64,000 nucleotides of DNA from the sequence record PZ379177.1, one strand, 5' to 3'. The position numbers and the translations under genes were made by a program. The notes below the pieces were generated by a model. It was not told the origin of the DNA, did no database searches, and saw nothing but the letters and a program-made list of their open reading frames with translations. Positions 944 to 30,859 of this stretch are shown in pieces (position 1 is the stretch's first letter; the number at the start of each line of letters is the position of its first letter). This stretch comes from a phage.

Positions 944-3124
944 TCACCACTTCAAAGGTGTAGCAGTAAGGTTGTTTATGTCGTTGATATCATCTTGTTC
1001 AAGCACGCGCTTAGTCTCAATAGCCGTGCTTCGTGGGTCTTGAGCGCCGTTGACGTTGATGACAACGTTTTTCTGACCCATAGTGATATCACGCCCACCA
1101 GGTCGACTATTCGCGGAGAGGTCGCCGCCGTATTTCTGGAACGCCTCAAGCTGGAATGCCGCAAGACGAGCATTCTTCATCGCTTCGGCCTGAATGTTCG
1201 GTCTTACGCCTGGAGTTGAAGCCAGCTGCATGTTTTTAATATAATCCCTTTGCGTTCCAAGTTTAAGGTAAGTTTGAGCAAAGTCAATATCACCTTTGTT
1301 AACTTGCCCTTGCATCAGCTGCTCAACTGGCACGTTTAGGTATCCTGCAATGGCTTCTTGCAACTGTCTGTATTGCACCGTTTGGCGGGATTGGCCTTGT
1401 ACTGGTGCATAGCTTCCTTTCGGCGCTTCTGCTCCGCTGCCGCTAAGAACTGGAGTAACTGGTGCACCTTGCGGCGCTCCTGTGGCGTATTCTCCATTCG
1501 CCTGTCGGTCGAGAGCAGCCATCACCTTGCCAGGATATGCACGGGTGTTCTTTCCCCATCCGCTGCGGTCATATCCACCGTGATACATAGTCAGGGCAAG
1601 ATTCCAATCGCCATTGGCAGCGGTTAAATATTCCTTGAGAAGTTGAGCGCCGCCCATAATGTTTTGTCTTGGGTCGTTACCGTCTGTAATGCCAAGTCCC
1701 TTGAAGTTGGAAGGCATTATTTGCATCAATCCGGTCGCGCCTGCTCCGCTCACAGCGTTAGGGTTGAATCCAGATTCGACTTCTGTGACGGCCTTCATCA
1801 TCGCAACAGGGATTCCATAACGCTTGGAGGCTTCCTCATAGATTGAGTCATATGCAGTCGGATTTCCTGACCCCAAGTTGTTGCCTACGGTCGCACCAGT
1901 GCTTAGTGCTGGCGTGCCAGGCATTGCGGATTGGCCTGCGCTTCGTCCTATCTCACCAGCCCATGCAGCCCACGCTTGTCGCTCATCAATAACACCAGCA
2001 AAGGTTGAAACGGCGCTTGAAAACAGGTTTATATCGCGAGTGAAAAGTGCTTGCGCAGAACGTTGTTCAGCCGCGTTTTGCTCCTGGTTCCTCTGGCGTT
2101 TCACATCGCCGTCAGCCATCTGAGTTATCCATCTATCAACGGCACGCTCGTGACGCTCGTTAACAGCCGCCTGTTTATCGAACGGGTGTTTCAAATCAGC
2201 GATGAAATTGTCGACAAATTCAGACCATCCATCAGACATCCTTTGGAACATCATCTGGAATCCTTCGACTGTATCGGCGGTCTTGCTGACAAGCATCGAG
2301 AATGCAGGCATCACGTTCTCACCGATTACCAGTTCAATGCGTCGCCAGTCTTCTTGAATTTGGCCCATGCTGTTTCGTATCGTTTCAAGCGCAGCCTGCT
2401 GTCTTTGCAGCTTCGCCGTTTCTTCGTCGCTTATACGGGTGCTTTCTTTGACTGATTGATTTCGCTCACGAAGCGCACGGACTTCATCGGCGGTAAAACC
2501 TGCCAGAGCACCAATAGCACGAGCGGTTTGCTCATTCACACTTCTCAGCTTTGTGCCAATTTCATCAAGCAGCTGGTTTGTGTCTTTGATGCCGCCGTTA
2601 CTGTTGAAAGGACTGGTCCCCATCTTGTTCAGAAGCAAGTTATCCTTGTTCATCACATCGGGGTTGGTGTATGCGTTAAATGCGAGATTAGAAGCCTTGC
2701 TGATTAAATCCCTTGACCCTTGCGCACCAAGAACTCCGCCTGAACTTTCATTCAATTGTCGCTGTAGTTGCTCCACTCCGATTGGTGAAAGCCCTGCTTC
2801 AAATCCAAGCTTCCTTTGCGCTTCATATTCTTTTCGAACATCAACGATTGATTTAACGACAACAGCCAATCCTGCAACAACAGGAACGAGCGCGGCGAAG
2901 CGATAAGTAAGCCGCGCAAGGATTCCGTCAATAGACCCCAGTTCAGCTGTGAGAGGCTTCAACTCACCAAACACATCTTTGAATGCTCCGGTGAAGTCTT
3001 TACCAGCGGACTTTGCCTTTTTGTTTGTCTGATCAACCTTATCTTGCAATTGCTCAAGACGATTGATGGACTCTTTCAAGTCCACCGTATATTGAAGCAC
3101 AAATTTTTCTAATGAGTCAGACAC
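944..3124 (-). CDS. tail tape-measure-like / tail lysin protein with C-terminal soluble lytic transglycosylase (SLT) domain
   Basis: 726 aa; coiled-coil N-terminus, hydrophobic segment ALVPVVAGLAVVV, SLT-like motif VTEVESGFNPNAVSGAGATGLMQIMP near C-terminus. Confidence 0.65.
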   Translation of the reverse strand: MSDSLEKFVLQYTVDLKESINRLEQLQDKVDQTNKKAKSAGKDFTGAFKDVFGELKPLTAELGSIDGILARLTYRFAALVPVVAGLAVVVKSIVDVRKEYEAQRKLGFEAGLSPIGVEQLQRQLNESSGGVLGAQGSRDLISKASNLAFNAYTNPDVMNKDNLLLNKMGTSPFNSNGGIKDTNQLLDEIGTKLRSVNEQTARAIGALAGFTADEVRALRERNQSVKESTRISDEETAKLQRQQAALETIRNSMGQIQEDWRRIELVIGENVMPAFSMLVSKTADTVEGFQMMFQRMSDGWSEFVDNFIADLKHPFDKQAAVNERHERAVDRWITQMADGDVKRQRNQEQNAAEQRSAQALFTRDINLFSSAVSTFAGVIDERQAWAAWAGEIGRSAGQSAMPGTPALSTGATVGNNLGSGNPTAYDSIYEEASKRYGIPVAMMKAVTEVESGFNPNAVSGAGATGLMQIMPSNFKGLGITDGNDPRQNIMGGAQLLKEYLTAANGDWNLALTMYHGGYDRSGWGKNTRAYPGKVMAALDRQANGEYATGAPQGAPVTPVLSGSGAEAPKGSYAPVQGQSRQTVQYRQLQEAIAGYLNVPVEQLMQGQVNKGDIDFAQTYLKLGTQRDYIKNMQLASTPGVRPNIQAEAMKNARLAAFQLEAFQKYGGDLSANSRPGGRDITMGQKNVVINVNGAQDPRSTAIETKRVLEQDDINDINNLTATPLKW

Positions 3125-3127
3125 AGT

Positions 3128-3544
3128 TTACCCCTTGTTTGGAGTCTCGCCGCTGAGGAATGGCGCGATTAATCGCATCGATTCGCCGATGAATGCTGCA
3201 GCCATTTCGCCGCCAGCTTGTTCCCAGTAGCCTTCACGCTCGGCGTGAGTATCTGGGTTTATACCGTTCTCCATGAGGACTGCTTCGAAGACTTCTTTAA
3301 GGTTTTCCCAGTCACCAAGATGGTTGTCAATTAGTGCACCAGTGCTTAATGGGATTTCTTGGCCCACATCAAGCTCGACTTTTGCGAAGCTCAACACTTC
3401 CATCGTATACTCTGAACGAAACGCAGGGTCCTTCGACATTGCAAATTCGACAAAGCGACGCTGAATATTCCAGCCTTCCATCGCAGTCATTTTGCTGATT
3501 TTGATTTCTACTGTACGACCAGTTTGTTTGTTGGTGATCTTCAT
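3128..3544 (-). CDS. hypothetical protein (possible tail assembly chaperone by position)
   Basis: 138-aa ORF tightly packed upstream of tape-measure-like gene. Confidence 0.4.
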   Translation of the reverse strand: MKITNKQTGRTVEIKISKMTAMEGWNIQRRFVEFAMSKDPAFRSEYTMEVLSFAKVELDVGQEIPLSTGALIDNHLGDWENLKEVFEAVLMENGINPDTHAEREGYWEQAGGEMAAAFIGESMRLIAPFLSGETPNKG

Positions 3545-3545
3545 T

Positions 3546-4106
3546 TTATATTCCTACTGTTGATTTTATTTTATTATATAACGAACTCACAGTTGTAGTC
3601 AAACTGACTGGTTCTTTAATAGCAACACCATTTGATGATTCGTCTGCAGATTGTTTAGGGTCGAAGCTTCCTTGAATGCTAAATGACGTTTGCTCGAAAG
3701 TTATTACTATTGAGACTCCATTCAAGTTTTCTTCTGACTGGGTTATTTCAACGTCGGACATCGACATTTTACTGGCAATGATGCTTCGAGAAGTTATTGA
3801 AAATGTGACTTCGTCATCATCAAATGAATTTATGATATTTTCAATTGTAGACTGGTCATTGCAAATTACGTTTAACGCCATATGGGCTGGCATTACAACC
3901 TTTGCCGCCTGTAAATTGCTTACTGATGACGTGCTTGATACTTCGACAACCTGCATGGCTGTACCAGCAAGAGGGAATTGAGTTGTTTCTGCTGGGGATG
4001 TTATTTCTGCAGAAACAGGTGAAAGCCTTGTCCAGACAGGAAGACCTGTTGACTCATTCGTTATGGTCAAAGATTGACCAGAAAGCAGAATCGAAACGAA
4101 GTCCAT
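3546..4106 (-). CDS. hypothetical tail-module protein
   Basis: 186-aa ORF, 1-nt gap to neighbour, same strand operon. Confidence 0.4.
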   Translation of the reverse strand: MDFVSILLSGQSLTITNESTGLPVWTRLSPVSAEITSPAETTQFPLAGTAMQVVEVSSTSSVSNLQAAKVVMPAHMALNVICNDQSTIENIINSFDDDEVTFSITSRSIIASKMSMSDVEITQSEENLNGVSIVITFEQTSFSIQGSFDPKQSADESSNGVAIKEPVSLTTTVSSLYNKIKSTVGI

Positions 4107-4639
4107 CAGAACATCCCCTTGATACCATTCATCACCTTTGTAGCGACGCCAGTGACGCTGGCAGAAGTTTCTTTTATGTATGCAATGCCGCGCTCTATTA
4201 CTGTTGAGTCGCCTGCCTGCGCTGTTTGAATAGACACATCCTGCTGTGTTAATATCTCATGGAAGACCAATTGTATGGGCTGAGATGTTATATTGTCAGC
4301 GTCCTGGCTGAAGTTGTTATTTTGCAGCACCATACGTTCGAATATTAGACCACGGGAATTAATTGTGTATATAGTCGACCTGTTTTGCAACATCTTAGCT
4401 ATTGCATCTGATGCGCTTTTCGTCTGAGCTATCACGGTGACAGTGAGTATTCGCGGCATCTTTACTCTGCCATCGACAATATAGCTGCCGTCTTCCCTTT
4501 GGTTTTTGAATATCTTCGCTTGGAGTCTTATTTTAACGTTAACAATCGCCCAACCAAGCGTTGACACTTCCCCAAGGTTGAAGCTTCTTATTGTGAAGCT
4601 TCTGTTGGAAAGACTATATGACAATAAATCGATAGCCAT
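4106..4639 (-). CDS. hypothetical tail-module protein
   Basis: 177-aa ORF, start/stop overlap with neighbours. Confidence 0.4.
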   Translation of the reverse strand: MAIDLLSYSLSNRSFTIRSFNLGEVSTLGWAIVNVKIRLQAKIFKNQREDGSYIVDGRVKMPRILTVTVIAQTKSASDAIAKMLQNRSTIYTINSRGLIFERMVLQNNNFSQDADNITSQPIQLVFHEILTQQDVSIQTAQAGDSTVIERGIAYIKETSASVTGVATKVMNGIKGMF

Positions 4640-5136
4640 TAAATTGACCCCAATATGCTCTGCACCACGCCTTTTGCAATTTGCGATGTGCTCTGTGCGC
4701 CGCCGTAGCTGGCAAACACGAATGTGTATCTGTTTGTCTTACGACGACCGGACTGCTCAATGGAGTCGCCAAGCGGACCGCTGATGATGGTCCCGTTCGA
4801 AAACGCCACTCTGCCGCCATCAGGATATGTAATAAGCATTGATGTGACATCCTGGATAGGAAGCCACTTGAATCCGCCTTTACGAGCGGAAAGCAAAAGC
4901 TTTAGGTTTATGTCATCTTCAGTGTTTGGGATCACCGCAATGGATACGCGAACGACGGCGGCCTTGTCATAAATACAAATGCCGCCGTCATAAGTAAGTT
5001 GATAGCCTACTGATTCAACTTCCTCAATAATTAGCGAATCCTGGTCATCAGACAAAGAACTGATATTCAGCCCAACAGGAAAAGATTGGAGAGCGACAAT
5101 TCTAATGCTTGTGCCAAATCCACTAATATTGACCAT
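4639..5136 (-). CDS. tail tube-like protein, paralog of 6087..6554
   Basis: 165 aa; N-terminus MVNISGFGTSIRIVA and later blocks align to 6087..6554 product (MINVSGFGASIRLVA; LTYPSG/ITYPDG). Confidence 0.5.
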   Translation of the reverse strand: MVNISGFGTSIRIVALQSFPVGLNISSLSDDQDSLIIEEVESVGYQLTYDGGICIYDKAAVVRVSIAVIPNTEDDINLKLLLSARKGGFKWLPIQDVTSMLITYPDGGRVAFSNGTIISGPLGDSIEQSGRRKTNRYTFVFASYGGAQSTSQIAKGVVQSILGSI

Positions 5137-25651: not shown

Positions 25652-25849
25652 GTGAATCAAAATGAATCAGTAGCATTCTTACAATGGCTGGAAGGTGTGG
25701 TGGAGTATTACGCTCCAAAAGACCGCTTCATCTTTCAAGGAAAAAGTTACAAGCGCAAAGGGCAGGCCCAGAAAGCAGCGCGTAAGTACTGGAAGGAAGT
25801 TTATTCAGAGTTCTTTCAGCAGATGGGCAGCACAGTTGGTATCGATTGA
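25652..25849 (+). CDS. hypothetical protein
   Basis: 65-aa ORF. Confidence 0.4.
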   Translation: MNQNESVAFLQWLEGVVEYYAPKDRFIFQGKSYKRKGQAQKAARKYWKEVYSEFFQQMGSTVGID

Positions 25850-25944
25850 TGAATGTTGATTTCGTGATGTTTTTGATCATATTGGCGATAAGTTCAGTAT
25901 TTGTTGTCGCTATGATCGCGCTTATTGATTGGTTGGATAAATAA
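25849..25944 (+). CDS. small hydrophobic protein (31 aa), not in ORF track
   Basis: ATG shares its A with the upstream TGA stop; product MNVDFVMFLIILAISSVFVVAMIALIDWLDK is a single transmembrane helix. Confidence 0.3.
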   Translation: MNVDFVMFLIILAISSVFVVAMIALIDWLDK

Positions 25945-26602
25945 ATCGTGGTTTTGGTGATTTTGGTGATTTAACCGTGAATCGTGGGTCGCTGTGGCGG
26001 CCCTTTCTTTTGCCTGCCGCGCAGGAGTGTACTGCAAATTTACTGTGGGCACAAAATAGTACGGTACTGTCCAGGACTTTTTCTTTGAAAAGTTAGTGGA
26101 CCAAATGTGTCGTATTTTGATTAGTGTACTGCAAATTCCATCAAGTAGCAAAACGCACCAAAAGACCCATGCCATAAAAACCACACGAACGCAATAATCA
26201 ATCGCCGTTACAGTTTCCAGCGTTACAATTCGAAAGCGAATGATTCGATGCATAATAATATGAAGCATAATGATTCGAAAGCTAATGATTGCGTGTAGGA
26301 TAATATCGGTGGGGATTATTCTAGATGCATGTAATTTCGCATGCGTACTATTTTCGGACGAAGGGTCGGCATATTCCTCGTTTTAGTTCGGAACGAAGGG
26401 AAAGTTTTGCGCCTTTATAAAACAATGACTTACGCGACCCGCCCTAACGGTCCGATATAGGTGTCTATATAAAACAAGGACTTACGCGATGTTCTCCATT
26501 TAACGTAATACCCGTTATGCGAACTAAGGCGCATCTCGACGAAGATTATGCGACGACGAAGGGAAGGATAAAGGAGTTTTCGCGGAGAAGCGCATCGAGA
26601 TA

Positions 26603-26634
26603 GGGACGAAGAAAAGCCGCGACTAAGCGCGGCC
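26603..26634 (-). terminator. rho-independent terminator closing the leftward arm of the atypical cassette
   Basis: minus-strand hairpin GCCGCGCTTAGTCGCGGC followed by TTTTCTTCG, about 20 nt after the 26654 stop. Confidence 0.4.
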
Positions 26635-26653
26635 TATTAGTAACGGAAGGGTA

Positions 26654-26944
26654 TTATAAGGAAACGATTTTAAAGAAAGAGTAACGGCCTTCGCCTTCGG
26701 ATACCGCGAGATATTCGCCGCCGAACTCCGTAGCAAAATAAACCTTGCCTTCGATAGTAACGCGGAAGGTAGAAATATCTTCCTCTTCGAGTTCCGTAAA
26801 TTCGCTAAAATCGATAGGACTATGAAGCTCCTCGATAGTCGCATCTACGTTAAAGAGATAAACGTTTTTAAGTTTTTCGCCAAATACGTTAGAGTTTTCG
26901 GAAGTTTCGGCGCGAGCGTTACGGATAGCGGCTAAAGTAATCAT
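26654..26944 (-). CDS. hypothetical small acidic protein (cassette gene 1)
   Basis: 96 aa; AGGAGATTATTATG initiation context; CG-rich codon usage unlike flanking phage genes. Confidence 0.55.
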   Translation of the reverse strand: MITLAAIRNARAETSENSNVFGEKLKNVYLFNVDATIEELHSPIDFSEFTELEEEDISTFRVTIEGKVYFATEFGGEYLAVSEGEGRYSFFKIVSL

Positions 26945-27045
26945 AATAATCTCCTAGTTGGGTCGGGAGGGTAGCGACCTATTCGCTACCTCATCCCCTC
27001 TCGATATAAAACATTATAGTCTTAGTGTACGAAGAAGTAAAGCAC
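26945..27045 (-). promoter_or_regulatory. sigma70-type promoter plus structured 5' UTR for cassette gene 1
   Basis: minus strand TTTACT-N17-TATAAT, then hairpin GGTAGCGA-ATAGG-TCGCTACC, then AGGAG RBS. Confidence 0.5.
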
Positions 27046-27052
27046 TTTTTCA

Positions 27053-27355
27053 TTATTCTGCGATAAAATATTTATAAGCTTTATCGCCTTCTACGTCGAT
27101 ATACTCGACGATAATTAACGCTTCGCCGCGAGGCGTAACCGTCTCGATAAGGGTAACGGCTTCGTCGTCGGTCTTCGCGAAGCGGATGGCGCTACGTTCG
27201 GCATACTTCATATCGTCGAAGGAAAGGCCGATGAAGGCGACCGCGCGGACCTTAATGGCGCTAGATTCTAGTTCCGCGTTAACGGCGGCGATAAGAGAGC
27301 GAACAGTTAAGCGGTCTTCGTCGTAAGTAAGGATGGAAGAGATTAAAGTAGTCAT
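27053..27355 (-). CDS. hypothetical small acidic protein (cassette gene 2)
   Basis: ORF trimmed to MTTLISS start with GGGAGCTTTATTATG context; same atypical codon style. Confidence 0.55.
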   Translation of the reverse strand: MTTLISSILTYDEDRLTVRSLIAAVNAELESSAIKVRAVAFIGLSFDDMKYAERSAIRFAKTDDEAVTLIETVTPRGEALIIVEYIDVEGDKAYKYFIAE

Positions 27356-27396
27356 AATAAAGCTCCCGATGCTAGTAGAAGAAAGGGCCATCGCCC

Positions 27397-27579
27397 GTCT
27401 CGATATAAACAAGTATACGCGAGTGTACGAAGAAGTAAAGAAAAAAGATAAAATAATTTATCGCATTTTTATCTAAAAAGTGCTTTACTTTTTTCTACAC
27501 TATATTATAATGTACTCATATCGGGACGGGATGAGTTAACGAATAGGTCGTTAACGCCTCTCCCAACTAGGAGTTTATT
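27397..27579. promoter_or_regulatory. divergent promoter pair with central palindromic operator and structured 5' UTR
   Basis: leftward TTTACT-N16-TATACT; rightward TTTACT-N16-TATAAT; between them AGATAAAA-N13-TTTTATCT; rightward UTR hairpin GTTAACGA-ATAGG-TCGTTAAC then AGGAG RBS. Confidence 0.5.
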
Positions 27580-27894
27580 ATGGCTATCGTTACCCGCTTT
27601 ACCCTCGAAAACGCAACCGCCGAAGTCCAGGGCGTTACGCTTACTTACGGCGAAATTCTCGCTAAATTCTCCGGCGTTCGCTTAGGCGAAGAAATTAACG
27701 ACGCGACGGTAATCGAGCAACTCGCTGCTTCTCGCTTAGAGCGCGACGAAAACGGATTCTTCGAAGTCGATGCGGAATTAAATTTATGCGGTAAAACGGC
27801 GTTTATTAACGAGTTCGAACTCGCCGTTTTAGTTAATTACGATAGCAAAGCTTACGCCTTCGCCCTCGAATTAATCGAAGACGACGAAGAGTAA
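27580..27894 (+). CDS. hypothetical small acidic protein (cassette gene 3)
   Basis: 104 aa, acidic C-terminus IEDDEE; AGGAGTTTATTATG context. Confidence 0.6.
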   Translation: MAIVTRFTLENATAEVQGVTLTYGEILAKFSGVRLGEEINDATVIEQLAASRLERDENGFFEVDAELNLCGKTAFINEFELAVLVNYDSKAYAFALELIEDDEE

Positions 27895-27974
27895 GAGAGG
27901 ATTTTTAGAGCGTCGTGCGCGGCGCTTTAATAAAATTCTTTCGCGCCTAGCGCCCTAACAAATAGGAGTTTATT

Positions 27975-28601
27975 ATGGTTAGCTTAAATCGCTTTTCTAC
28001 TAGCGGCGACGTTATCGCAACTAAGACCGCCGACCTCGTTGCATTCTATAATGCAAATTCCGGCTCAAAACCGATTAAGAAGTTTGCGGACCGCCGGACC
28101 GCCGAGACTCGCGTAATCGCGTTAATCGAGTCCTTAAACGCGCTCGATGCGCCGTCCAACGAGTCGCCCATCCCCGACGCGAAGGCGCGCGAGGAAGTGT
28201 CCAGCGATGTAAAAACTCATAAGGCGCGTGCGGTCGTTAAAAAGGCTGAGCCGACCCAGGAAGAACTCGACGCGATGACCGACGAAGAATATGAAGCCTT
28301 CGTTAAGAGCGGTTTAAATGATAGTGCAAATTGCGTAGTGCAAAATGGAACTCCTTCCCATCGCCGTTCGAATAGCGAAGGTATTGCAAAAAGCTGGGAT
28401 AATAAGGAAGTGGCGCAAAAGCGTCTCACCCGTAACGGTGTCATGGTCGAGGGTGTAGGCGAGTTCAAATCGGTCCGCGTAGCGTTCGCTGCGCTGGGAT
28501 TACCGGATAGCAAGCACATTCGCTTCCGCATGAAGCTTAAGGAAGCTGGGCGCTTGAACTTCGAGTTCGGCAACAAGTCCTACACCTTCCAGATTATCTA
28601 A
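27975..28601 (+). CDS. hypothetical protein (cassette gene 4)
   Basis: 208 aa; identical AGGAGTTTATTATG context; contains two ATAGTGCAAAT-type motif copies in its coding sequence. Confidence 0.6.
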   Translation: MVSLNRFSTSGDVIATKTADLVAFYNANSGSKPIKKFADRRTAETRVIALIESLNALDAPSNESPIPDAKAREEVSSDVKTHKARAVVKKAEPTQEELDAMTDEEYEAFVKSGLNDSANCVVQNGTPSHRRSNSEGIAKSWDNKEVAQKRLTRNGVMVEGVGEFKSVRVAFAALGLPDSKHIRFRMKLKEAGRLNFEFGNKSYTFQII

Positions 28602-28607
28602 TAGAAT

Positions 28608-28631
28608 GGCGGCCCTTCGGGGTCGCTTTTC
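28608..28631 (+). terminator. rho-independent terminator closing the rightward arm of the cassette
   Basis: hairpin GGCGGCCC-TTCG-GGGTCGC followed by TTTT, 7 nt after the 28601 stop. Confidence 0.4.
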
Positions 28632-28651
28632 ATAGTGCAAATTGGTGGCTT

Positions 28652-28915
28652 ATGAATACGCTCATTCTCATCGCTACGTTATCCATCGGAAGTGGTCGCA
28701 CCTTATCCCTTTACGACCATAGTGCAAATTGCGCTTATCCTACGCGCGTTGCGGCGATAGTTAATAGTGCAAATAAGATGCTATTCGAGACTTGCTGGCG
28801 GGTCGATAACGAGAAAGGTCGGGTAGTCTTAGGTTATAGTGCAAATCTGCTGGTGGAGTCGTTCGATTGGACGGTTGAAGGTCGTAAATTGTTACGGAAA
28901 GTGACTAAAAGATGA
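28652..28915 (+). CDS. questionable ORF (87 aa) carrying three in-frame copies of the 11-mer
   Basis: weak RBS; motif copies read as HSANCA, NSANKM, YSANLL; may be a repeat region rather than a gene. Confidence 0.25.
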   Translation: MNTLILIATLSIGSGRTLSLYDHSANCAYPTRVAAIVNSANKMLFETCWRVDNEKGRVVLGYSANLLVESFDWTVEGRKLLRKVTKR

Positions 28916-28976
28916 CTTATAATAATACACTTTCTAACGCGTTTATGGTTGTAACCTTCCCCGTCGTATTACCGAT

Positions 28977-29016
28977 GGCCCTAGAAGTGGAGAAAATGTG
29001 TTCTAGGGCCGTTTTA
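28977..29016 (+). terminator. rho-independent terminator
   Basis: perfect 10-bp inverted repeat GGCCCTAGAA...TTCTAGGGCC followed by GTTTTA. Confidence 0.5.
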
Positions 29017-29029
29017 TAGTGCAAATTGG

Positions 29030-29503
29030 CTAGTGGCGGGAGAATTGCTCACCTTCTTTGGCCGCCTCTCCAAAATCCTTGTAGAAATCGTCCATGGAAC
29101 GGCCCATTTTACTATTGCCGTTTTCATCAATCATCGTGATGCCGTAGATGATATTCAGTTCACGAATAGCATTAAGTTTGGCTGACGCCGCGACTTCTGG
29201 ATCACGCACAAGCTTGACCAAATTGTGAATTGCACCTTTTACGCTCCACAAATCCTTGAGTGGCATCTCTTCCATACGCTTTTTGAAGCGCATCTTGTAG
29301 TATGGATTGCGTTGCGCGCAAAGGATTCGCTGGCCAGTGTAGTTATCCGTTGCAACTTCCATTCCAAATACTAGTGCAAAAGCTGCGCGCATGTCATGGC
29401 CCTGAATAACAAGGTCAATGAACTCATCGAATAAAGCCTGATTGTGCTCTGCAAATCGCGGGTCTTCAAAGTCTTCAGGCATCGCTACATAATCTTGACT
29501 CAT
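29030..29503 (-). CDS. hypothetical protein (speculatively terminase small subunit-like)
   Basis: 157 aa with normal phage codon style; no clear SD; both candidate ATGs lie inside copies of the 11-mer (read as TTTGCACTATG on the coding strand). Confidence 0.45.
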   Translation of the reverse strand: MSQDYVAMPEDFEDPRFAEHNQALFDEFIDLVIQGHDMRAAFALVFGMEVATDNYTGQRILCAQRNPYYKMRFKKRMEEMPLKDLWSVKGAIHNLVKLVRDPEVAASAKLNAIRELNIIYGITMIDENGNSKMGRSMDDFYKDFGEAAKEGEQFSRH

Positions 29504-29654
29504 AGTGCAAAATCCCATAGTGCAAATTAATAGTGTGAATTATACAATGGATGGACATTATATTCAAGTGCAGATTGATGTTCATTATGGCTATAAACGT
29601 ACACAAATCATAGTGCTGAATGGATAACGGACCGTGGTGCGTGGTGTACTGTTT

Positions 29655-30004
29655 GATACGGATAAAAGAAATCCATCCCTTTCGCCGCTTGTTATGCAAA
29701 TCAATGACTTAGCCGCTGCTGGCTGGTTTAAGCGTATCATGACGTATCATCCGTATTGCCGCAAGTCTTTGTTTTTACTTATATCTTACGGATAATACGT
29801 TAAATATATAAATTAACATAAGTATGAGGATGTAGAAAAAAAATTAATTTAAATTAATTCAAAATGGAGTTAATTAATTTTTGAAATAATTCTGGTTACA
29901 ATAAGGAAAAATGGCGTATCATCCGTATCATCCGTAAGATTCAGTGTACAAATCCAGGCGCGGCGCACCCTAGCGCCATGATACGGATAAAAACCTATCC
30001 GTAA
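29655..30004. repeat. complex regulatory repeat module copy 2 (GATACGGAT units flanking an AT-rich core)
   Basis: 29-bp block GCGTATCATCCGTATCATCCGTAAGATTC identical to 14156-14184; GATACGGATAAAA at 29655 and 29980; AT-rich core 29800-29900. Confidence 0.6.
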
Positions 30005-30319
30005 GAGTGTACGCTTCAATTAAAGAATCCAGGCGCGGCGCGGCTTTCACCACCACACACCACGGTTCACTCTCCAAAATCCGCACACTAAATTCCAAAA
30101 TCCAATGCTCATACTCCAAAAATAAATCCAAATTTCCATTTTATTTATTATTTTCATCCACAATATACTAAATTCTATCCGTATTAACCACGACTCAACC
30201 CACCACGATTCATGCCAATCACTTCAAAATTTCCATCGAAAACGACAAAAGGCCGCGTAAAGCGACCAATTGCACACATTCCATTATTCAAAACACGTAA
30301 ACGAGTGTTCTTTTATCCA

Positions 30320-30859
30320 CTATAATTTAGGCATCAATCCCTTTTCCGTTCTCCTTTTTATCTCGTCTTCTATCATTTTATTGGTCACTCTATAGCCAAT
30401 CCTTTCCAATTCCATTAATACTTCCTTTTGGTATTTTCTTATTTTCACAATGTCAACCGTATCCCTCCAATAAGATAATACCTTCTTAATGACTGACTTT
30501 TCCATTTTATATCTGGCGGTAGTCATATACTTCATTTTAAAAATAGAGTTGATCGCATCAGTCTTTAACCATTCCTTTCTTAATTCAGGATGATCATTCC
30601 AAAGAGTAATGGCGAACTCCTGCGGACTTTTGCACCTGCTTTGAAGCTCCTTTATATAGTCAGCCGTTTTTACTTTTCTATCTAAACGCGCGCGGCAAAC
30701 GGTGCACTCTTCCTTGAGCAACCAATCGGCCTTCTTATCAATTTGCAAAGTTGAATTGCCATCCCTTTTATACCTGCCGCAAAAGCTTATGCCTTCATCT
30801 TTTAAGAAGTAATGCAACTCTTTAGAGTATTTCGCTTTACGCCAAAAGCCTCCCATCAC
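30320..30859 (-). CDS. hypothetical protein
   Basis: 179-aa basic ORF. Confidence 0.45.
   Translation of the reverse strand: MMGGFWRKAKYSKELHYFLKDEGISFCGRYKRDGNSTLQIDKKADWLLKEECTVCRARLDRKVKTADYIKELQSRCKSPQEFAITLWNDHPELRKEWLKTDAINSIFKMKYMTTARYKMEKSVIKKVLSYWRDTVDIVKIRKYQKEVLMELERIGYRVTNKMIEDEIKRRTEKGLMPKL

What the first reader, a model, noticed from the sequence alone, without database searches (positions are those of the whole stretch)
28652..28915. ORF or repeat region: three in-frame 11-mer copies inside an 87-aa reading frame
The three motif copies fall at regular 45-72 bp spacing and all translate as a Ser-Ala-Asn tripeptide. The RBS is weak. Either the repeats are constrained to be coding-compatible, or the ORF is a by-product of a non-coding repeat array.
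Basis: seen in the sequence. Interest (0 to 1): 0.35.

Follow-up and report, generated by a model that had tools for sequence, protein, structure and literature searches.

The report
Oriented DNA-word array in phage terminal repeat
The three in-frame repeats lie in a real small phage gene, but they belong to a larger one-strand cluster of 10-12 copies of a DNA word near the end of the phage genome, next to the small terminase gene, and this cluster is probably a signal for handling the genome end, possibly DNA packaging.

Summary
ORF 28652-28915 holds three in-frame ATAGTGCAAAT copies (S-A-N), spaced 45 and 72 bp. The core TAGTGCAAA occurs 10 times in the 64-kb window, all on the + strand and all within 28322-29526 (0.77 expected by chance).

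The window is a Wifcevirus (E. coli myovirus). The array lies in the left third of its ~3.8-kb direct terminal repeat (DTR, window ~26080-29865), 0.3-1.5 kb from the physical left end. It spans the 3' end of a 208-aa gene (gp208), ORF87, two intergenic spacers and the antisense strand of the small terminase gene (terS).

ORF87 is a real gene: intact in 20/20 genomes, pN/pS 0.09, distant homologues in Pantoea and Serratia phages. The word is also selected at the DNA level. In a homologue 59% identical in protein, motif codons are 97% identical in DNA against 58% elsewhere, and S-A-N appears only where the DNA word is present.

Kylevirus phages carry 9-10 co-oriented copies of TAGTGC(A/G)A at the same place. 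Individual positions turn over, and oriented Chi sites are interspersed.

Function is unproven. My best guess is a polar recognition array for the terminase (confidence about 0.35). I found no published description.

The parts
28652..28915 (+). ORF87, a real protein-coding gene (CPT_Mansfield_003 / WFC_00109 family). It carries three array copies at loop positions of a predicted small beta protein.
   Evidence: Intact in 20/20 genomes. Codon-position bias 7/8/32. pN/pS 0.09. Homologues P0002, Kyle gp002 and MTx_014. AF2 model has pLDDT 72 with no fold match.
28719..28729 (+). Array copy, ATAGTGCAAAT (H-S-A-N in ORF87)
   Evidence: Exact core in 19/20 genomes. Exact in the divergent contig L025.
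28764..28774 (+). Array copy, ATAGTGCAAAT (N-S-A-N in ORF87). This is the only ORF87 position shared with Kylevirus.
   Evidence: 18/20 genomes. Kyle and PA1 both have TAATAGTGCGAATC at the homologous site.
28836..28846 (+). Array copy, ATAGTGCAAAT (Y-S-A-N in ORF87), followed after 2 nt (CT) by Chi
   Evidence: 13/20 genomes exact. Seven have the synonymous change GCA>GCG.
28321..28345 (+). Left-edge tandem pair, ATAGTGCAAAT and GTAGTGCAAAA, 14 bp apart, inside the 3' part of gp208 (frames D-S-A-N and V-V-Q)
   Evidence: Present in 16-17 of 20 genomes. Replaced by a divergent patch in ECML-117, Ro157lw and RCIP0319.
28632..28642 (+). Array copy in the gp208-ORF87 spacer, immediately after an intrinsic terminator (stem 28609-28626, T-run 28627-28630)
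   Evidence: 20/20 genomes. Terminator annotated in WFH. Duplicated in tandem in L025.
29016..29026 (+). Array copy in the spacer between the convergent genes, immediately after an intrinsic terminator (stem 28977-29010, T-run 29012-29015). Followed by the Chi-like GCTAGTGG.
   Evidence: 19/20 genomes. Terminator annotated in WFC.
29371..29381 (+). Array copy CTAGTGCAAAA, antisense inside terS
   Evidence: 20/20 genomes.
29502..29540 (+). Right-edge tandem cluster of two exact copies (29502, 29517) plus one degenerate copy (29530, ATAGTGTGAAT). It lies between the terS -10 hexamer and the terS start codon, and the ATG is fused to a copy.
   Evidence: 20/20 genomes.
28048..28058 (+). Degenerate outlying copy ATAATGCAAAT inside gp208
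26027..26137 (+). Two copies of GTGTACTGCAAATT (26027-26040 and 26124-26137), which contain the related word TACTGCAAAT. They bracket the right DTR boundary (26080) at -50 and +47.
   Evidence: Conserved with point variants across Wifcevirus.
29030..29503 (-). Small terminase gene (terS), E217 / PDB 7UXE family
   Evidence: phmmer against PDB 7UXE 'Small terminase', E = 7e-34. Mansfield annotation. pN/pS 0.05.
29539..29567 (-). Sigma-70-like promoter for terS (TTGAAT-17-TATAAT)
   Evidence: Consensus scan, 10 of 12 matches. Sequence. This is a prediction only.
27975..28601 (+). gp208, the family-wide convergent partner of terS. Its C-terminal domain (residues ~152-208) has a confident helix-turn-helix-like fold.
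   Evidence: PHROG 4730. tblastn distribution. AF2 C-terminal pLDDT ~90. Foldseek top hits are all winged-helix proteins but not significant, E >= 0.17.
26080..29865 (.). Direct terminal repeat, present as a single collapsed copy in this window. The physical left end of virion DNA is at 29865, and the virion + strand is the window - strand.
   Evidence: The two WFC ends are 100% identical over 3,784 bp and map here. Mansfield has a PhageTerm DTR of 3,673 bp. Korf et al. report ~3.7 kb.
28849..28856 (+). E. coli Chi (GCTGGTGG), co-oriented with the array and active for RecBCD entering at the left genome end
   Evidence: 20/20 genomes. Conserved in L025. Orientation rule from PMC12315714.

Best explanation
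Shown:
- ATAGTGCAAAT is a DNA-level, strand-polar word. It is kept in about ten copies in the left third of the Wifcevirus direct terminal repeat.
- It is written across whatever lies there: the end of gp208, ORF87 (a real gene, at loop positions that tolerate Ser-Ala-Asn), two spacers, and the antisense strand plus 5' leader of terS.
- Selection acts on the number and polarity of the words in this segment, not on each individual site.

Inferred mechanism: the array marks the terminal repeat for the packaging machinery. The ring-shaped small terminase (E217 type, a decamer with many weak DNA-binding domains) would bind many dispersed copies by avidity, or read them while the motor translocates through the repeat. 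Terminase would thereby be recruited to, or stopped at, the correct concatemer segment. Cleavage would then occur at the nearby repeat boundaries, one of which is itself bracketed by two related words. No step of the terminase part has been shown.
For: Word statistics: 10 exact copies on one strand within 1.2 kb and none elsewhere in 64 kb, against 0.77 expected. With one degenerate position there are 12 of 12 copies, all + strand, all in or at the DTR.

Location: inside the DTR, 327-1544 bp from the physical left end. The array flanks and overlaps terS, which is confirmed as a small terminase (PDB 7UXE, E = 7e-34). Two related words bracket the other DTR boundary at about +/-50 bp.

Conservation:
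- All 20 Wifcevirus genomes have 7-10 copies, never on the other strand.
- DNA-level selection: identity to the divergent homologue is 97% in motif codons against 58% elsewhere. Codon identity at conserved residues is 11/12 against 17/37, p = 0.005.
- S-A-N is absent from family members that lack the DNA word.
- Kylevirus phages Kyle and PA1 have 9-10 co-oriented TAGTGC(A/G)A copies at the same DTR position (580-1476) and none in the other 66 kb. Positions turn over while the count is kept.

Precedent: pac sites within or next to terS in P22, and multiple TerS contacts flanking the cut in SPP1. E217 TerS is a decamer with no detectable binding to DNA in vitro, which is consistent with a need for many sites (PMC9611059).
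Against: - There is no binding, packaging or terminus-mapping experiment, so the terminase link rests on position only.
- Known pac and cos recognition sites are compact (about 300 bp or less), whereas this array spans 1.2 kb with irregular spacing.
- Turnover of positions is unusual for a precise packaging signal.
- Pbunavirus, Myosmarvirus, Carpasinavirus and Burkholderia phage WTB have homologous TerS, and all but WTB also have a detectable gp208 homologue. None has a comparable word array. Hera has a different 3-copy repeat.
- Motif columns are not measurably more conserved than background within Wifcevirus at ~5% divergence: 17/90 against 193/1171 variable.
- Co-clustering with Chi would also fit a recombination or end-protection role.
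Confidence: 0.35

Rival explanations
1. The word is a polar signal read by some other machine that tracks DNA from the genome end. This would be a Chi- or KOPS-like logic, for example a nuclease-helicase, a recombination or replication-restart factor, or the ejection and internalisation machinery. It would work together with the co-oriented Chi sites to protect the leading end and recombine the terminal repeats.
For: - The array has single polarity, irregular spacing, and turnover of positions with the count maintained. These are the signatures of density-selected polar words.
- The array is interleaved with Chi sites in the same polarity. Kyle has 9 Chi in 2 kb, P about 1e-15. PA1 has 7. Wifcevirus has one exact Chi and one Chi-like site, each in 20/20 genomes. 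L025 has 2 Chi in 521 bp.
- Motif-plus-Chi composites occur within 0-12 nt several times.
- Terminally clustered, oriented Chi arrays are documented in P1, LLS and MD8 (PMC12315714).
Against: - No enzyme other than RecBCD is known to read an octamer directionally in enterobacteria, and the word has no similarity to Chi.
- The order of motif and Chi is not fixed, so the adjacency may only reflect co-clustering.
- Nothing identifies a reader protein.
Confidence: 0.15
2. The copies are operator-like binding sites for an early phage DNA-binding protein (gp208 or an unidentified factor). This protein would shut off or time terS expression and manage the convergent transcription zone.
For: - Three tandem copies sit between the predicted terS -10 hexamer and the start codon, with the ATG fused to a copy.
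- Two copies directly follow intrinsic terminators.
- gp208 is encoded within the array and has a confident helix-turn-helix-like C-terminal domain.
- TerS overdose is reported to be harmful for E217 (PMC9611059).
Against: - Kyle's terS leader has no copy, so the operator arrangement is not conserved.
- Copies deep inside ORF87 and gp208 are not explained.
- The putative recognition helix of gp208 is invariant from Pbunavirus to Wifcevirus, yet the word is absent from those other genera.
- The winged-helix match is not significant.
Confidence: 0.15
3. The array is a set of iterons of a replication origin located in the terminal repeat, bound by a phage initiator such as a primase-helicase.
For: - The repeats are direct and in one orientation.
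- An AT-rich stretch (34-36% GC, 29550-29999) adjoins the right-hand tandem cluster.
- Embedding iterons in coding sequence has a classical precedent in lambda ori inside gene O (own knowledge).
- In relatives a primase or helicase gene lies just upstream of terS.
Against: - The spacing is neither regular nor helically phased, and the span of 1.2 kb is far wider than known iteron origins.
- Positions turn over between relatives.
- No initiator gene is adjacent in Wifcevirus or Kyle.
- The DnaA-box consensus is not met.
- The GC-skew change at ~29900 is explained by the switch in gene orientation.
Confidence: 0.1
4. The word acts as RNA. Every copy lies on the sense strand downstream of the leftward early promoter (27484-27511), so a long early transcript would carry about ten AUAGUGCAAAU motifs. 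These could bind a protein, or pair with the complementary terS initiation region and delay terS translation.
For: - All copies are on one strand and downstream of one promoter.
- In Wifcevirus the terS leader and start codon are exactly complementary to the word, AUUUGCACUAUG, twice.
Against: - Two intrinsic terminators lie within the array, so distal copies would be transcribed only by read-through.
- Kyle's terS leader lacks the complement.
- There is no Rfam family and no conserved structure.
- The two boundary words at 26027 and 26124 lie upstream of that promoter.
Confidence: 0.08
5. This is the first reader's second option, or a purely protein-level repeat. Either ORF87 is a spurious frame created by a non-coding repeat, or the repeat exists because the protein needs three Ser-Ala-Asn motifs.
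For: - The SD is weak.
- No Pfam or PHROG family matches ORF87.
- Some annotations omit the gene, e.g. EC150 and AV128.
Against: Against a spurious ORF:
- pN/pS is 0.09 against 1-2 in the other frames, and the frame is intact in 20/20 genomes.
- Homologues exist at 59%, 31% and 26-29% identity.
- The L025 homologue has GGAGG-N5-GTG at the equivalent start.

Against a protein-level repeat:
- Seven of the ten exact copies are outside ORF87, in another frame, antisense or non-coding.
- S-A-N is not conserved in family members that lack the DNA word.
Confidence: 0.02

Closest known systems
Terminase recognition sites built from repeated words in or beside the small-terminase gene: P22 pac inside terS, SPP1 pacL/pacR, lambda cosB R-sites and cosQ, P1 pac hexamers
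   Same: A unique cis-site next to or inside terS and near the DNA end produced by terminase. It is made of several short, sequence-specific words. The polarity matters, as with cosQ. It partly overlaps coding sequence, as the P22 and SPP1 sites do.
   Different: It spans 1.2 kb, whereas the known sites are about 300 bp or less. It has 10-12 copies at irregular spacing, and the positions turn over between relatives. The phage makes long exact terminal repeats rather than cos ends or headful ends. No TerS binding has been shown, and the homologous E217 TerS showed no DNA binding in vitro. The details for lambda and P1 are from my own knowledge.
Chi sites clustered and oriented near phage genome ends (P1, lambdoid LLS, Pseudomonas MD8; PMC12315714)
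   Same: Short words of one polarity relative to a DNA end, clustered terminally and at irregular spacing. Genuine Chi sites are interleaved with the array here, very densely so in Kylevirus.
   Different: The word TAGTGC(A/G)AA is unrelated to GCTGGTGG, and no enzyme is known to read it. Within this family the Chi positions are better conserved than the motif positions.
Repeat-rich injection-stop (iss) region in the long terminal repeat of T5-like phages (bioRxiv 10.1101/866236)
   Same: A conserved cluster of short repeats inside a multi-kb direct terminal repeat that also carries early genes. Its function has been inferred only in silico.
   Different: The T5 region is non-coding, lies at the distal end of the repeat, mixes inverted repeats and palindromes, and contains consensus DnaA boxes. 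Here there is one word in one orientation, largely inside genes and proximal to the end, and the DnaA consensus is not met.
Iterons embedded in coding sequence (lambda ori in gene O; P4 ori/crr octamers); own knowledge
   Same: Direct repeats written in frame into a real gene, so the same DNA both encodes protein and is a binding site.
   Different: Iteron origins are compact and phased, and they lie in or next to the initiator gene. This array crosses three unrelated genes on both coding strands and has no adjacent initiator.
T7 SRL/SRR arrays of short one-orientation repeats adjoining the terminal repetition (Dunn and Studier 1983); own knowledge, not retrieved in the library
   Same: About a dozen short co-oriented repeats next to the terminal repeat of a DTR phage. 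Their function is still unclear and has been discussed in relation to concatemer processing.
   Different: The T7 arrays are tightly spaced, non-coding and lie outside the 160-bp repeat. Here the array is inside a 3.8-kb repeat and overlaps genes.

Membership tests
Terminase (pac/cos-type) recognition site | Located in or next to the small-terminase gene | tested here: met
   The copies flank terS, lie inside it and precede it (29030-29503). terS matches PDB 7UXE at E = 7e-34.
Terminase (pac/cos-type) recognition site | Close to the physical genome terminus or cleavage site | tested here: met
   The array is 327-1544 bp from the left end at 29865. Related words lie about +/-50 bp from the right DTR boundary at 26080.
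Terminase (pac/cos-type) recognition site | Unique in the genome | tested here: met
   No copy outside the DTR in 64 kb, nor in Kyle's 66-kb unique region.
Terminase (pac/cos-type) recognition site | Bound by TerS and required in cis for packaging | not testable with these tools
   Needs EMSA or footprinting and packaging or transduction assays.
Terminase (pac/cos-type) recognition site | Compact site (tens to a few hundred bp) | tested here: not met
   The span is 1.2 kb and the spacing ranges from 13 to 355 bp.
Iteron-type replication origin | Direct repeats in one orientation | tested here: met
   10 of 10 copies are on the + strand.
Iteron-type replication origin | Regular, helically phased spacing in a compact block | tested here: not met
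   Spacings are 14 to 355 bp with no common phase.
Iteron-type replication origin | Adjacent initiator gene and/or DnaA boxes and an AT-rich unwinding element | tested here: inconclusive
   An AT-rich stretch at 29550-29999 adjoins the array. No initiator gene is adjacent, and no consensus DnaA box falls in the array.
Chi (RecBCD) site | Sequence 5'-GCTGGTGG-3' | tested here: not met
   The word is TAGTGCAAA. A genuine Chi is separately present at 28849.
Chi (RecBCD) site | One polarity relative to a DNA end, with terminal clustering | tested here: met
   The array has the same strand and the same segment as the Chi sites in Wifcevirus, L025, Kyle and PA1.
DnaA box array (as proposed for T5 iss) | Match to TTWTNCACA or to the relaxed YYHTMCRHM consensus | tested here: not met
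   No array position matches either pattern. The reverse complement (A/T)TTTGCACT fails at positions 5 and 9 of the relaxed consensus.
Sigma-70 or phage-specific promoter | -35/-10 geometry, or a conserved -10 upstream of genes, with copies at other transcription units | tested here: not met
   The flanks share no -35. Most copies are inside genes. There are none elsewhere in the genome. Most Kyle copies have G, T or C where a -10 element needs its conserved A (GTAGTG, TTAGTG or CTAGTG; one copy has ATAGTG), although PA1 copies mostly keep the A.
Coding tandem or peptide repeat | Repeat explained by a conserved peptide motif in the protein family | tested here: not met
   S-A-N is absent at sites 1 and 3 in Kyle and at all three sites in Myosmarvirus homologues. 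Copies also occur in other frames, antisense and in non-coding DNA.
Known structured RNA (Rfam) | Match to any Rfam 15 covariance model | tested here: not met
   No hits at E <= 1 over 25800-30400 on either strand.
Real protein-coding gene (ORF87) | Purifying selection in frame, intact frame in homologues, distant homologues | tested here: met
   pN/pS 0.09. Intact in 20/20 genomes. Homologues at 59%, 31% and 26-29% identity.

The most novel reading that the evidence does not exclude
TAGTGC(A/G)AA is a second polar control word, distinct from Chi. It would be read directionally by a translocating enzyme at the leading end of the genome: either the packaging motor approaching the terminal cut, or an unknown end-processing helicase-nuclease. 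It would be kept at a set density in the terminal repeat alongside Chi. That would make it a new class of end-proximal orientation signal in virulent phages with long terminal repeats.
Probability: 0.15. Interest if true: 0.8.

Novelty: new variant of a known kind. Interest (0 to 1): 0.55.

Why it matters
How small terminases of the E217 / Pbunavirus / Wifcevirus type find viral DNA is unknown. The solved E217 TerS decamer showed no DNA binding in vitro, and no pac-like site has been proposed for these phages. Some of their relatives are used therapeutically.

This array is a concrete, testable candidate. It is a defined 11-mer in about ten copies, next to terS and near the mapped genome end, and it is conserved in two genera. 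If TerS needs many dispersed weak sites, that would explain the negative experiments with short oligonucleotides.

Independently of mechanism, this is a clean example of dual-use sequence, in which a DNA signal is written into tolerant loop positions of a real gene. It also warns annotators against dismissing small ORFs that contain repeats. The same comparisons showed that related enterobacterial phages (Kylevirus, Myosmarvirus) carry dense, correctly oriented Chi clusters in their terminal repeats. That extends the recently described terminal-Chi strategy to virulent myoviruses with long DTRs.

Tried and rejected
1. DnaA-box reading of the reverse complement. It fails both the strict and the relaxed consensus.

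2. Promoter reading. The flanks share no -35, the copies lie inside genes, and most Kyle copies lack the conserved A that a -10 element needs.

3. Scans of viral and metagenome contigs for tandem pairs of the word (TAGTGCAAAN{4,34}TAGTGCAAA). Apart from two known Wifcevirus contigs they returned only unrelated tandem repeats.

4. Conservation of motif columns within Wifcevirus. It is not significant at ~5% divergence (17/90 against 193/1171 variable). The signal appeared only with the 59%-identity homologue L025.

5. Protein searches for gp208. The lists were saturated by sequences 97% identical or more, and only one diverse sequence (P0139) was obtained. The structure models therefore rest on shallow alignments.

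6. Structure and fold searches.
   - ORF87: pLDDT 72, but the other four models are poor, and there is no fold match.
   - gp208: only the terminal domains are confident. The fold hits are uniformly winged-helix proteins but not significant. There is no solved relative by sequence.

7. ORF87 as the binder of its own word. This is unlikely. The family has two invariant Cys and a hydrophobic N-terminus, which suggests an exported protein, and it exists in Myosmarvirus without the array.

8. Antisense pairing of sense copies with the terS initiation region. Kyle lacks the complementary leader.

9. Fixed motif-Chi composite. The order and the spacing both vary.

10. Equivalent arrays in Pbunavirus PAP8, Xanthomonas XcP1 and Burkholderia WTB. 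None was found. Serratia Hera has a different 3 x ~25-nt repeat with a palindromic core.

11. Literature. No paper mentions the word in a phage context or describes repeats in the Wifcevirus DTR. The search for T7 pacB returned mostly 'PacBio' hits.
Full report
**1. The observation**

ORF 28652-28915 (+, 87 aa) exists. It contains exact ATAGTGCAAAT copies starting at 28719, 28764 and 28836, spaced 45 and 72 bp. All three are in the same codon phase and read H-S-A-N, N-S-A-N and Y-S-A-N.

The repeat is much larger than the ORF. The 9-mer core TAGTGCAAA has 10 exact copies, all on the + strand and all between 28322 and 29526. There are none elsewhere in the 64-kb window on either strand. Shuffles give 0.77 copies on average, with a maximum of 3. 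Degenerate copies lie at 28049, 29531 and about 29611. Relaxing one position (TA[G/C]TGCAAA) gives 12 copies, still all on the + strand, between 26030 and 29526.

The spacing is irregular: 14, 297, 87, 45, 72, 180, 355, 131 and 15 bp. The two edges of the array are tight tandem clusters.

The shared frame is weak evidence. The word contains TAG, so only two sense frames are open, H-S-A-N or I-V-Q. The copy at 28336 uses the second frame, and the copy at 29372 is antisense within another gene.

**2. Genomic setting**

The window is a Wifcevirus, an E. coli/Shigella myovirus of about 68 kb. It is 92-97% identical to WFC, WFH, FEC19, Mansfield and Bas98-101.

These phages have a direct terminal repeat (DTR). 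Korf et al. report about 3.7 kb for WFC and WFH (PMC6563267). PhageTerm gives 3,673 bp for Mansfield. The two ends of the WFC record are 100% identical over 3,784 bp. WFC and Mansfield place the physical left end at the same base, window 29865 (...AACTCC|ATTTT...), and the other boundary is at 26080. The window therefore holds one collapsed copy of the repeat, and the virion + strand is the window - strand.

In virion coordinates the array occupies 327-1544, the left third of the repeat. It covers these features:
- the 3' part of a 208-aa gene (gp208, 27975-28601);
- the gp208-ORF87 spacer, with a copy immediately after an intrinsic terminator;
- ORF87;
- the spacer after a second terminator, again with a copy immediately after the T-run;
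- the convergent gene 29030-29503 on the - strand, together with its leader.

That convergent gene is the small terminase. It matches PDB 7UXE 'Small terminase' at E = 7e-34 over residues 3-147. The review PMC9611059 describes a cryo-EM structure of Pbunavirus E217 TerS. It reports a decamer with no appreciable DNA binding in vitro and a gene about 58 kb from terL. I take 7UXE to be that entry, but the identification is from my own recollection.

A sigma-70-like promoter (TTGAAT-17-TATAAT, -10 hexamer ending at 29539) precedes terS. The three right-edge copies lie between its -10 hexamer and the ATG, which is fused to a copy.

**3. ORF87 is a real gene**

In an alignment of the window with 19 Wifcevirus genomes, the frame is 264 nt in all 20, with no stops or indels. 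Variable sites fall 7/8/32 by codon position.

| Gene | pN/pS in annotated frame | pN/pS in shifted frames |
|---|---|---|
| ORF87 | 0.09 | 2.2, 0.96 |
| gp208 | 0.07 | 4.20, 2.65 |
| terS | 0.05 | 2.29, 4.50 |
| ORF 28912-29019 (35 aa) | 1.19 | 0.75, 0.49 |

The overlapping 35-aa ORF, which many records annotate, also shows no codon-position bias (5/8/8), so it is probably not a gene.

ORF87 has a homologue 59% identical in protein, P0002, on ENA contig L025. In L025 the equivalent start is GTG, preceded by GGAGG. Distant homologues exist in Pantoea phage Kyle (gp002, at the same position in its DTR) and in Serratia Myosmarvirus.

There is no Pfam or PHROG family. The AlphaFold model is a six-strand beta fold with a C-terminal helix. 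Its best pLDDT is 72 from a shallow alignment, and it has no significant fold match. The family has two invariant Cys and a hydrophobic N-terminus, so I infer an exported protein.

**4. The word is selected as DNA, not as peptide**

Between the window and L025:
- nucleotide identity is 97% in the 12 motif codons and 58% in the rest of the ORF;
- among conserved residues, 11 of 12 motif codons are identical, against 17 of 37 elsewhere (Fisher p = 0.005);
- L025 also has two tandem exact copies in the gp208-ORF87 spacer.

In the family alignment the S-A-N tripeptides are not conserved residues:

| Site | Wifcevirus | Kyle | Myosmarvirus |
|---|---|---|---|
| 1 | HSAN | DSTG | YKD |
| 2 | NSAN | NSAN (Kyle has a DNA copy here) | NGGG |
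| 3 | YSAN | NGHD | DQYS |

In the model all three sites are loops or turns just after strands. The DNA word has therefore been written into tolerant positions of a real protein.

Redundancy is visible within Wifcevirus. Individual copies are lost, often by synonymous changes: GCA>GCG in seven phages, plus AGT>AGC and AAT>AAC. A recombinant patch removes the two leftmost copies in three phages. Even so, every genome keeps 7-10 copies and never has one on the other strand. At about 5% divergence the motif columns are not measurably more conserved than background.

**5. Conservation beyond the genus**

Kyle (Kylevirus) has a 3,603-bp DTR with the same layout: terS at 357-839, convergent with the ORF87 and gp208 homologues. 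It has nine copies of T(T/C)GCACTA on the virion + strand at 580-1476. This is the same strand and the same place as in Wifcevirus. There are none in the 66-kb unique region and none on the opposite strand.

PA1, a second Kylevirus, has ten copies with the consensus (C/A)ATAGTGC(A/G)AAT, essentially the Wifcevirus word.

Kyle and PA1 are 58% identical over this region. Only about 4-6 of the 9-10 motif positions are shared, and each phage has private copies. Only one of the three ORF87 positions is shared between Wifcevirus and Kyle, and Kyle's other copies use other sites and frames. What is maintained is the number and polarity of words in this segment.

Pbunavirus, Myosmarvirus, Carpasinavirus and Burkholderia phage WTB have homologous TerS, and all but WTB also have a detectable gp208 homologue. 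None has such an array. Serratia phage Hera has a different 3 x ~25-nt repeat after terS.

**6. Co-resident Chi sites**

The array is interleaved with E. coli Chi (GCTGGTGG) on the same strand. By the rule quoted in PMC12315714, that orientation is active for RecBCD entering at the left end.
- Wifcevirus has one exact Chi (28849) and one Chi-like site (GCTAGTGG, 29029), each in 20/20 genomes.
- L025 has two Chi sites in 521 bp.
- Kyle has nine in its first 2 kb against six in the other 66 kb (Poisson P about 1e-15).
- PA1 has seven and Hera four.
- Chi positions are better conserved than motif positions: 6 of 9 are shared between Kyle and PA1.

Terminal, oriented Chi clusters are a recently described phage strategy, seen in P1, LLS and MD8. 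From the Chi polarity I infer that the left end is the one exposed to RecBCD, and so probably the leading end.

**7. Mechanism**

Shown: a polar, density-maintained DNA word cluster that is unique to the terminal repeat and overlaps real genes.

Inferred (confidence 0.35): it is read by the terminase. The supporting arguments are:
- its position around terS and near the mapped end;
- its uniqueness in the genome;
- two related words (GTGTACTGCAAATT) bracketing the other repeat boundary at -50 and +47;
- precedents of pac sites in or beside terS;
- the fact that a decameric TerS with weak individual contacts would need many sites, which could explain the negative in-vitro result for E217.

The arguments against are the 1.2-kb span, the turnover of positions, the absence of the array from other genera with homologous TerS, and the lack of any experiment.

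Rival explanations:
- Another polar reader linked to Chi and end processing (0.15).
- Operator sites for an early DNA-binding protein (0.15). The three copies in the terS leader fit this, but Kyle's leader has none. The putative recognition helix of gp208 is invariant across genera that lack the word.
- Origin iterons (0.10). The spacing and span do not fit, no initiator gene is adjacent, and the DnaA consensus is not met.
- An RNA-level motif in a leftward early transcript (0.08). There are terminators within the array, no Rfam family matches, and the pairing with the terS start is specific to Wifcevirus.
- A spurious ORF or a peptide repeat (0.02), which is refuted above.

**8. Comparison with known systems and novelty**

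The closest known systems are repeated-word terminase recognition sites, terminal Chi clusters, the T5 iss repeat region (bioRxiv 10.1101/866236), iterons embedded in genes, and the T7 SRL/SRR arrays (own knowledge).

The array fails at least one defining feature of each, or the decisive feature cannot be tested here. I therefore do not file it as a member of any of them.

Full-text searches found no description of the word or of repeats in the Wifcevirus DTR. I rate it a new variant of a known kind (a cis-acting oriented word array) with an unproven reader.

Interest is 0.55. It is not spectacular by itself, but it gives a concrete and cheap test for how E217-type small terminases find their DNA, and it is a clear case of dual-use coding sequence.

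Noticed in passing
window 28849-28856 and 29029-29036; L266 (Kyle) 255-1972; L271 (PA1) 2869-4441; L023 (Hera) 3737-4840; L025 195 and 422: E. coli Chi sites are clustered in the left part of the terminal repeat, all in the polarity that is active against RecBCD entering at the left end. Kyle has 9 in 2 kb against 6 in the other 66 kb (P about 1e-15). Wifcevirus has one exact and one single-mismatch Chi, each in 20/20 genomes. This extends the terminal-Chi pattern known from P1 and LLS to virulent myoviruses with long DTRs.
   Followed up: partly
window 29743-29755, 29915-29927, 29924-29936; inverted partner 29783-29799: A second repeat family (CGTATCATCCGTA / ACGGATGATACG) flanks the physical left end (29865) on both sides, within a very AT-rich stretch. 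It is a candidate determinant of the terminase cut itself.
   Followed up: no
window 26027-26040 and 26124-26137: Two copies of GTGTACTGCAAATT bracket the right DTR boundary (26080) at -50 and +47. They are conserved with point variants in Wifcevirus. Kyle has a homologous CAGTACACTAATCA block just outside its own boundary.
   Followed up: partly
window 27475-27511 (+), 27448-27412 (-), 27050-27013 (-): There are three near-identical strong sigma-70-like early promoters with an upstream A-tract (AAAAAGTGCTTTACTT..TACACTATAAT). They drive divergent transcription inside the terminal repeat.
   Followed up: no
window 28912-29019 (+): The 35-aa ORF annotated in many Wifcevirus records (e.g. WFC_00108) shows no coding signature: pN/pS is 1.19 and codon-position counts are 5/8/8. 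It also contains the intrinsic terminator hairpin, so it is probably not a gene.
   Followed up: yes
window 27975-28601 (+): gp208 (PHROG 4730, unknown function) is the convergent partner of terS from Pbunavirus to Wifcevirus. Its C-terminal 55 residues, with the invariant LPDSKHIRFRMKLK, model confidently as beta-beta-helix-turn-helix-beta-beta. The fold hits are all winged-helix DNA binders, but none is significant.
   Followed up: partly
L268 (MTx) 2012-3773 and L267 (MyoSmar) 2041-3797: In Myosmarvirus a gp208-like domain, fused into a 344-aa protein, and an ORF87-family gene sit together next to terL. They are outside the terminal repeat and have no array. The gp208-ORF87 pair therefore behaves as a conserved gene cassette that is independent of the DNA word.
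   Followed up: partly
L023 (Hera) 4509-4650: Three copies of a ~25-nt repeat (AAAAAATAAGCATGCTTTGTA) with a palindromic AAGCATGCTT core lie just downstream of terS in Serratia phage Hera. This may be that genus's own element at the equivalent place.
   Followed up: no
alignment of window 28300-28350 with ECML-117, Ro157lw and RCIP0319 (L006, L013, L008): A short divergent, apparently recombinant patch in three phages replaces both left-edge copies. GATAGTGCAAATTG becomes GATACTCCGGTTGG or GATGCTCCGGTTGG, and CGTAGTGCAAAATG becomes CGCGGATAAAATTG. These copies are therefore dispensable.
   Followed up: partly
Kyle/PA1 alignment, column ~1098; Kyle record ~1192-1204: At one aligned position Kyle has a Chi (GCGCTGGTGGCTAA) where PA1 has a motif copy (GCGCTTAGTGCAAA). 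The two kinds of word appear to replace each other at the same spot.
   Followed up: no
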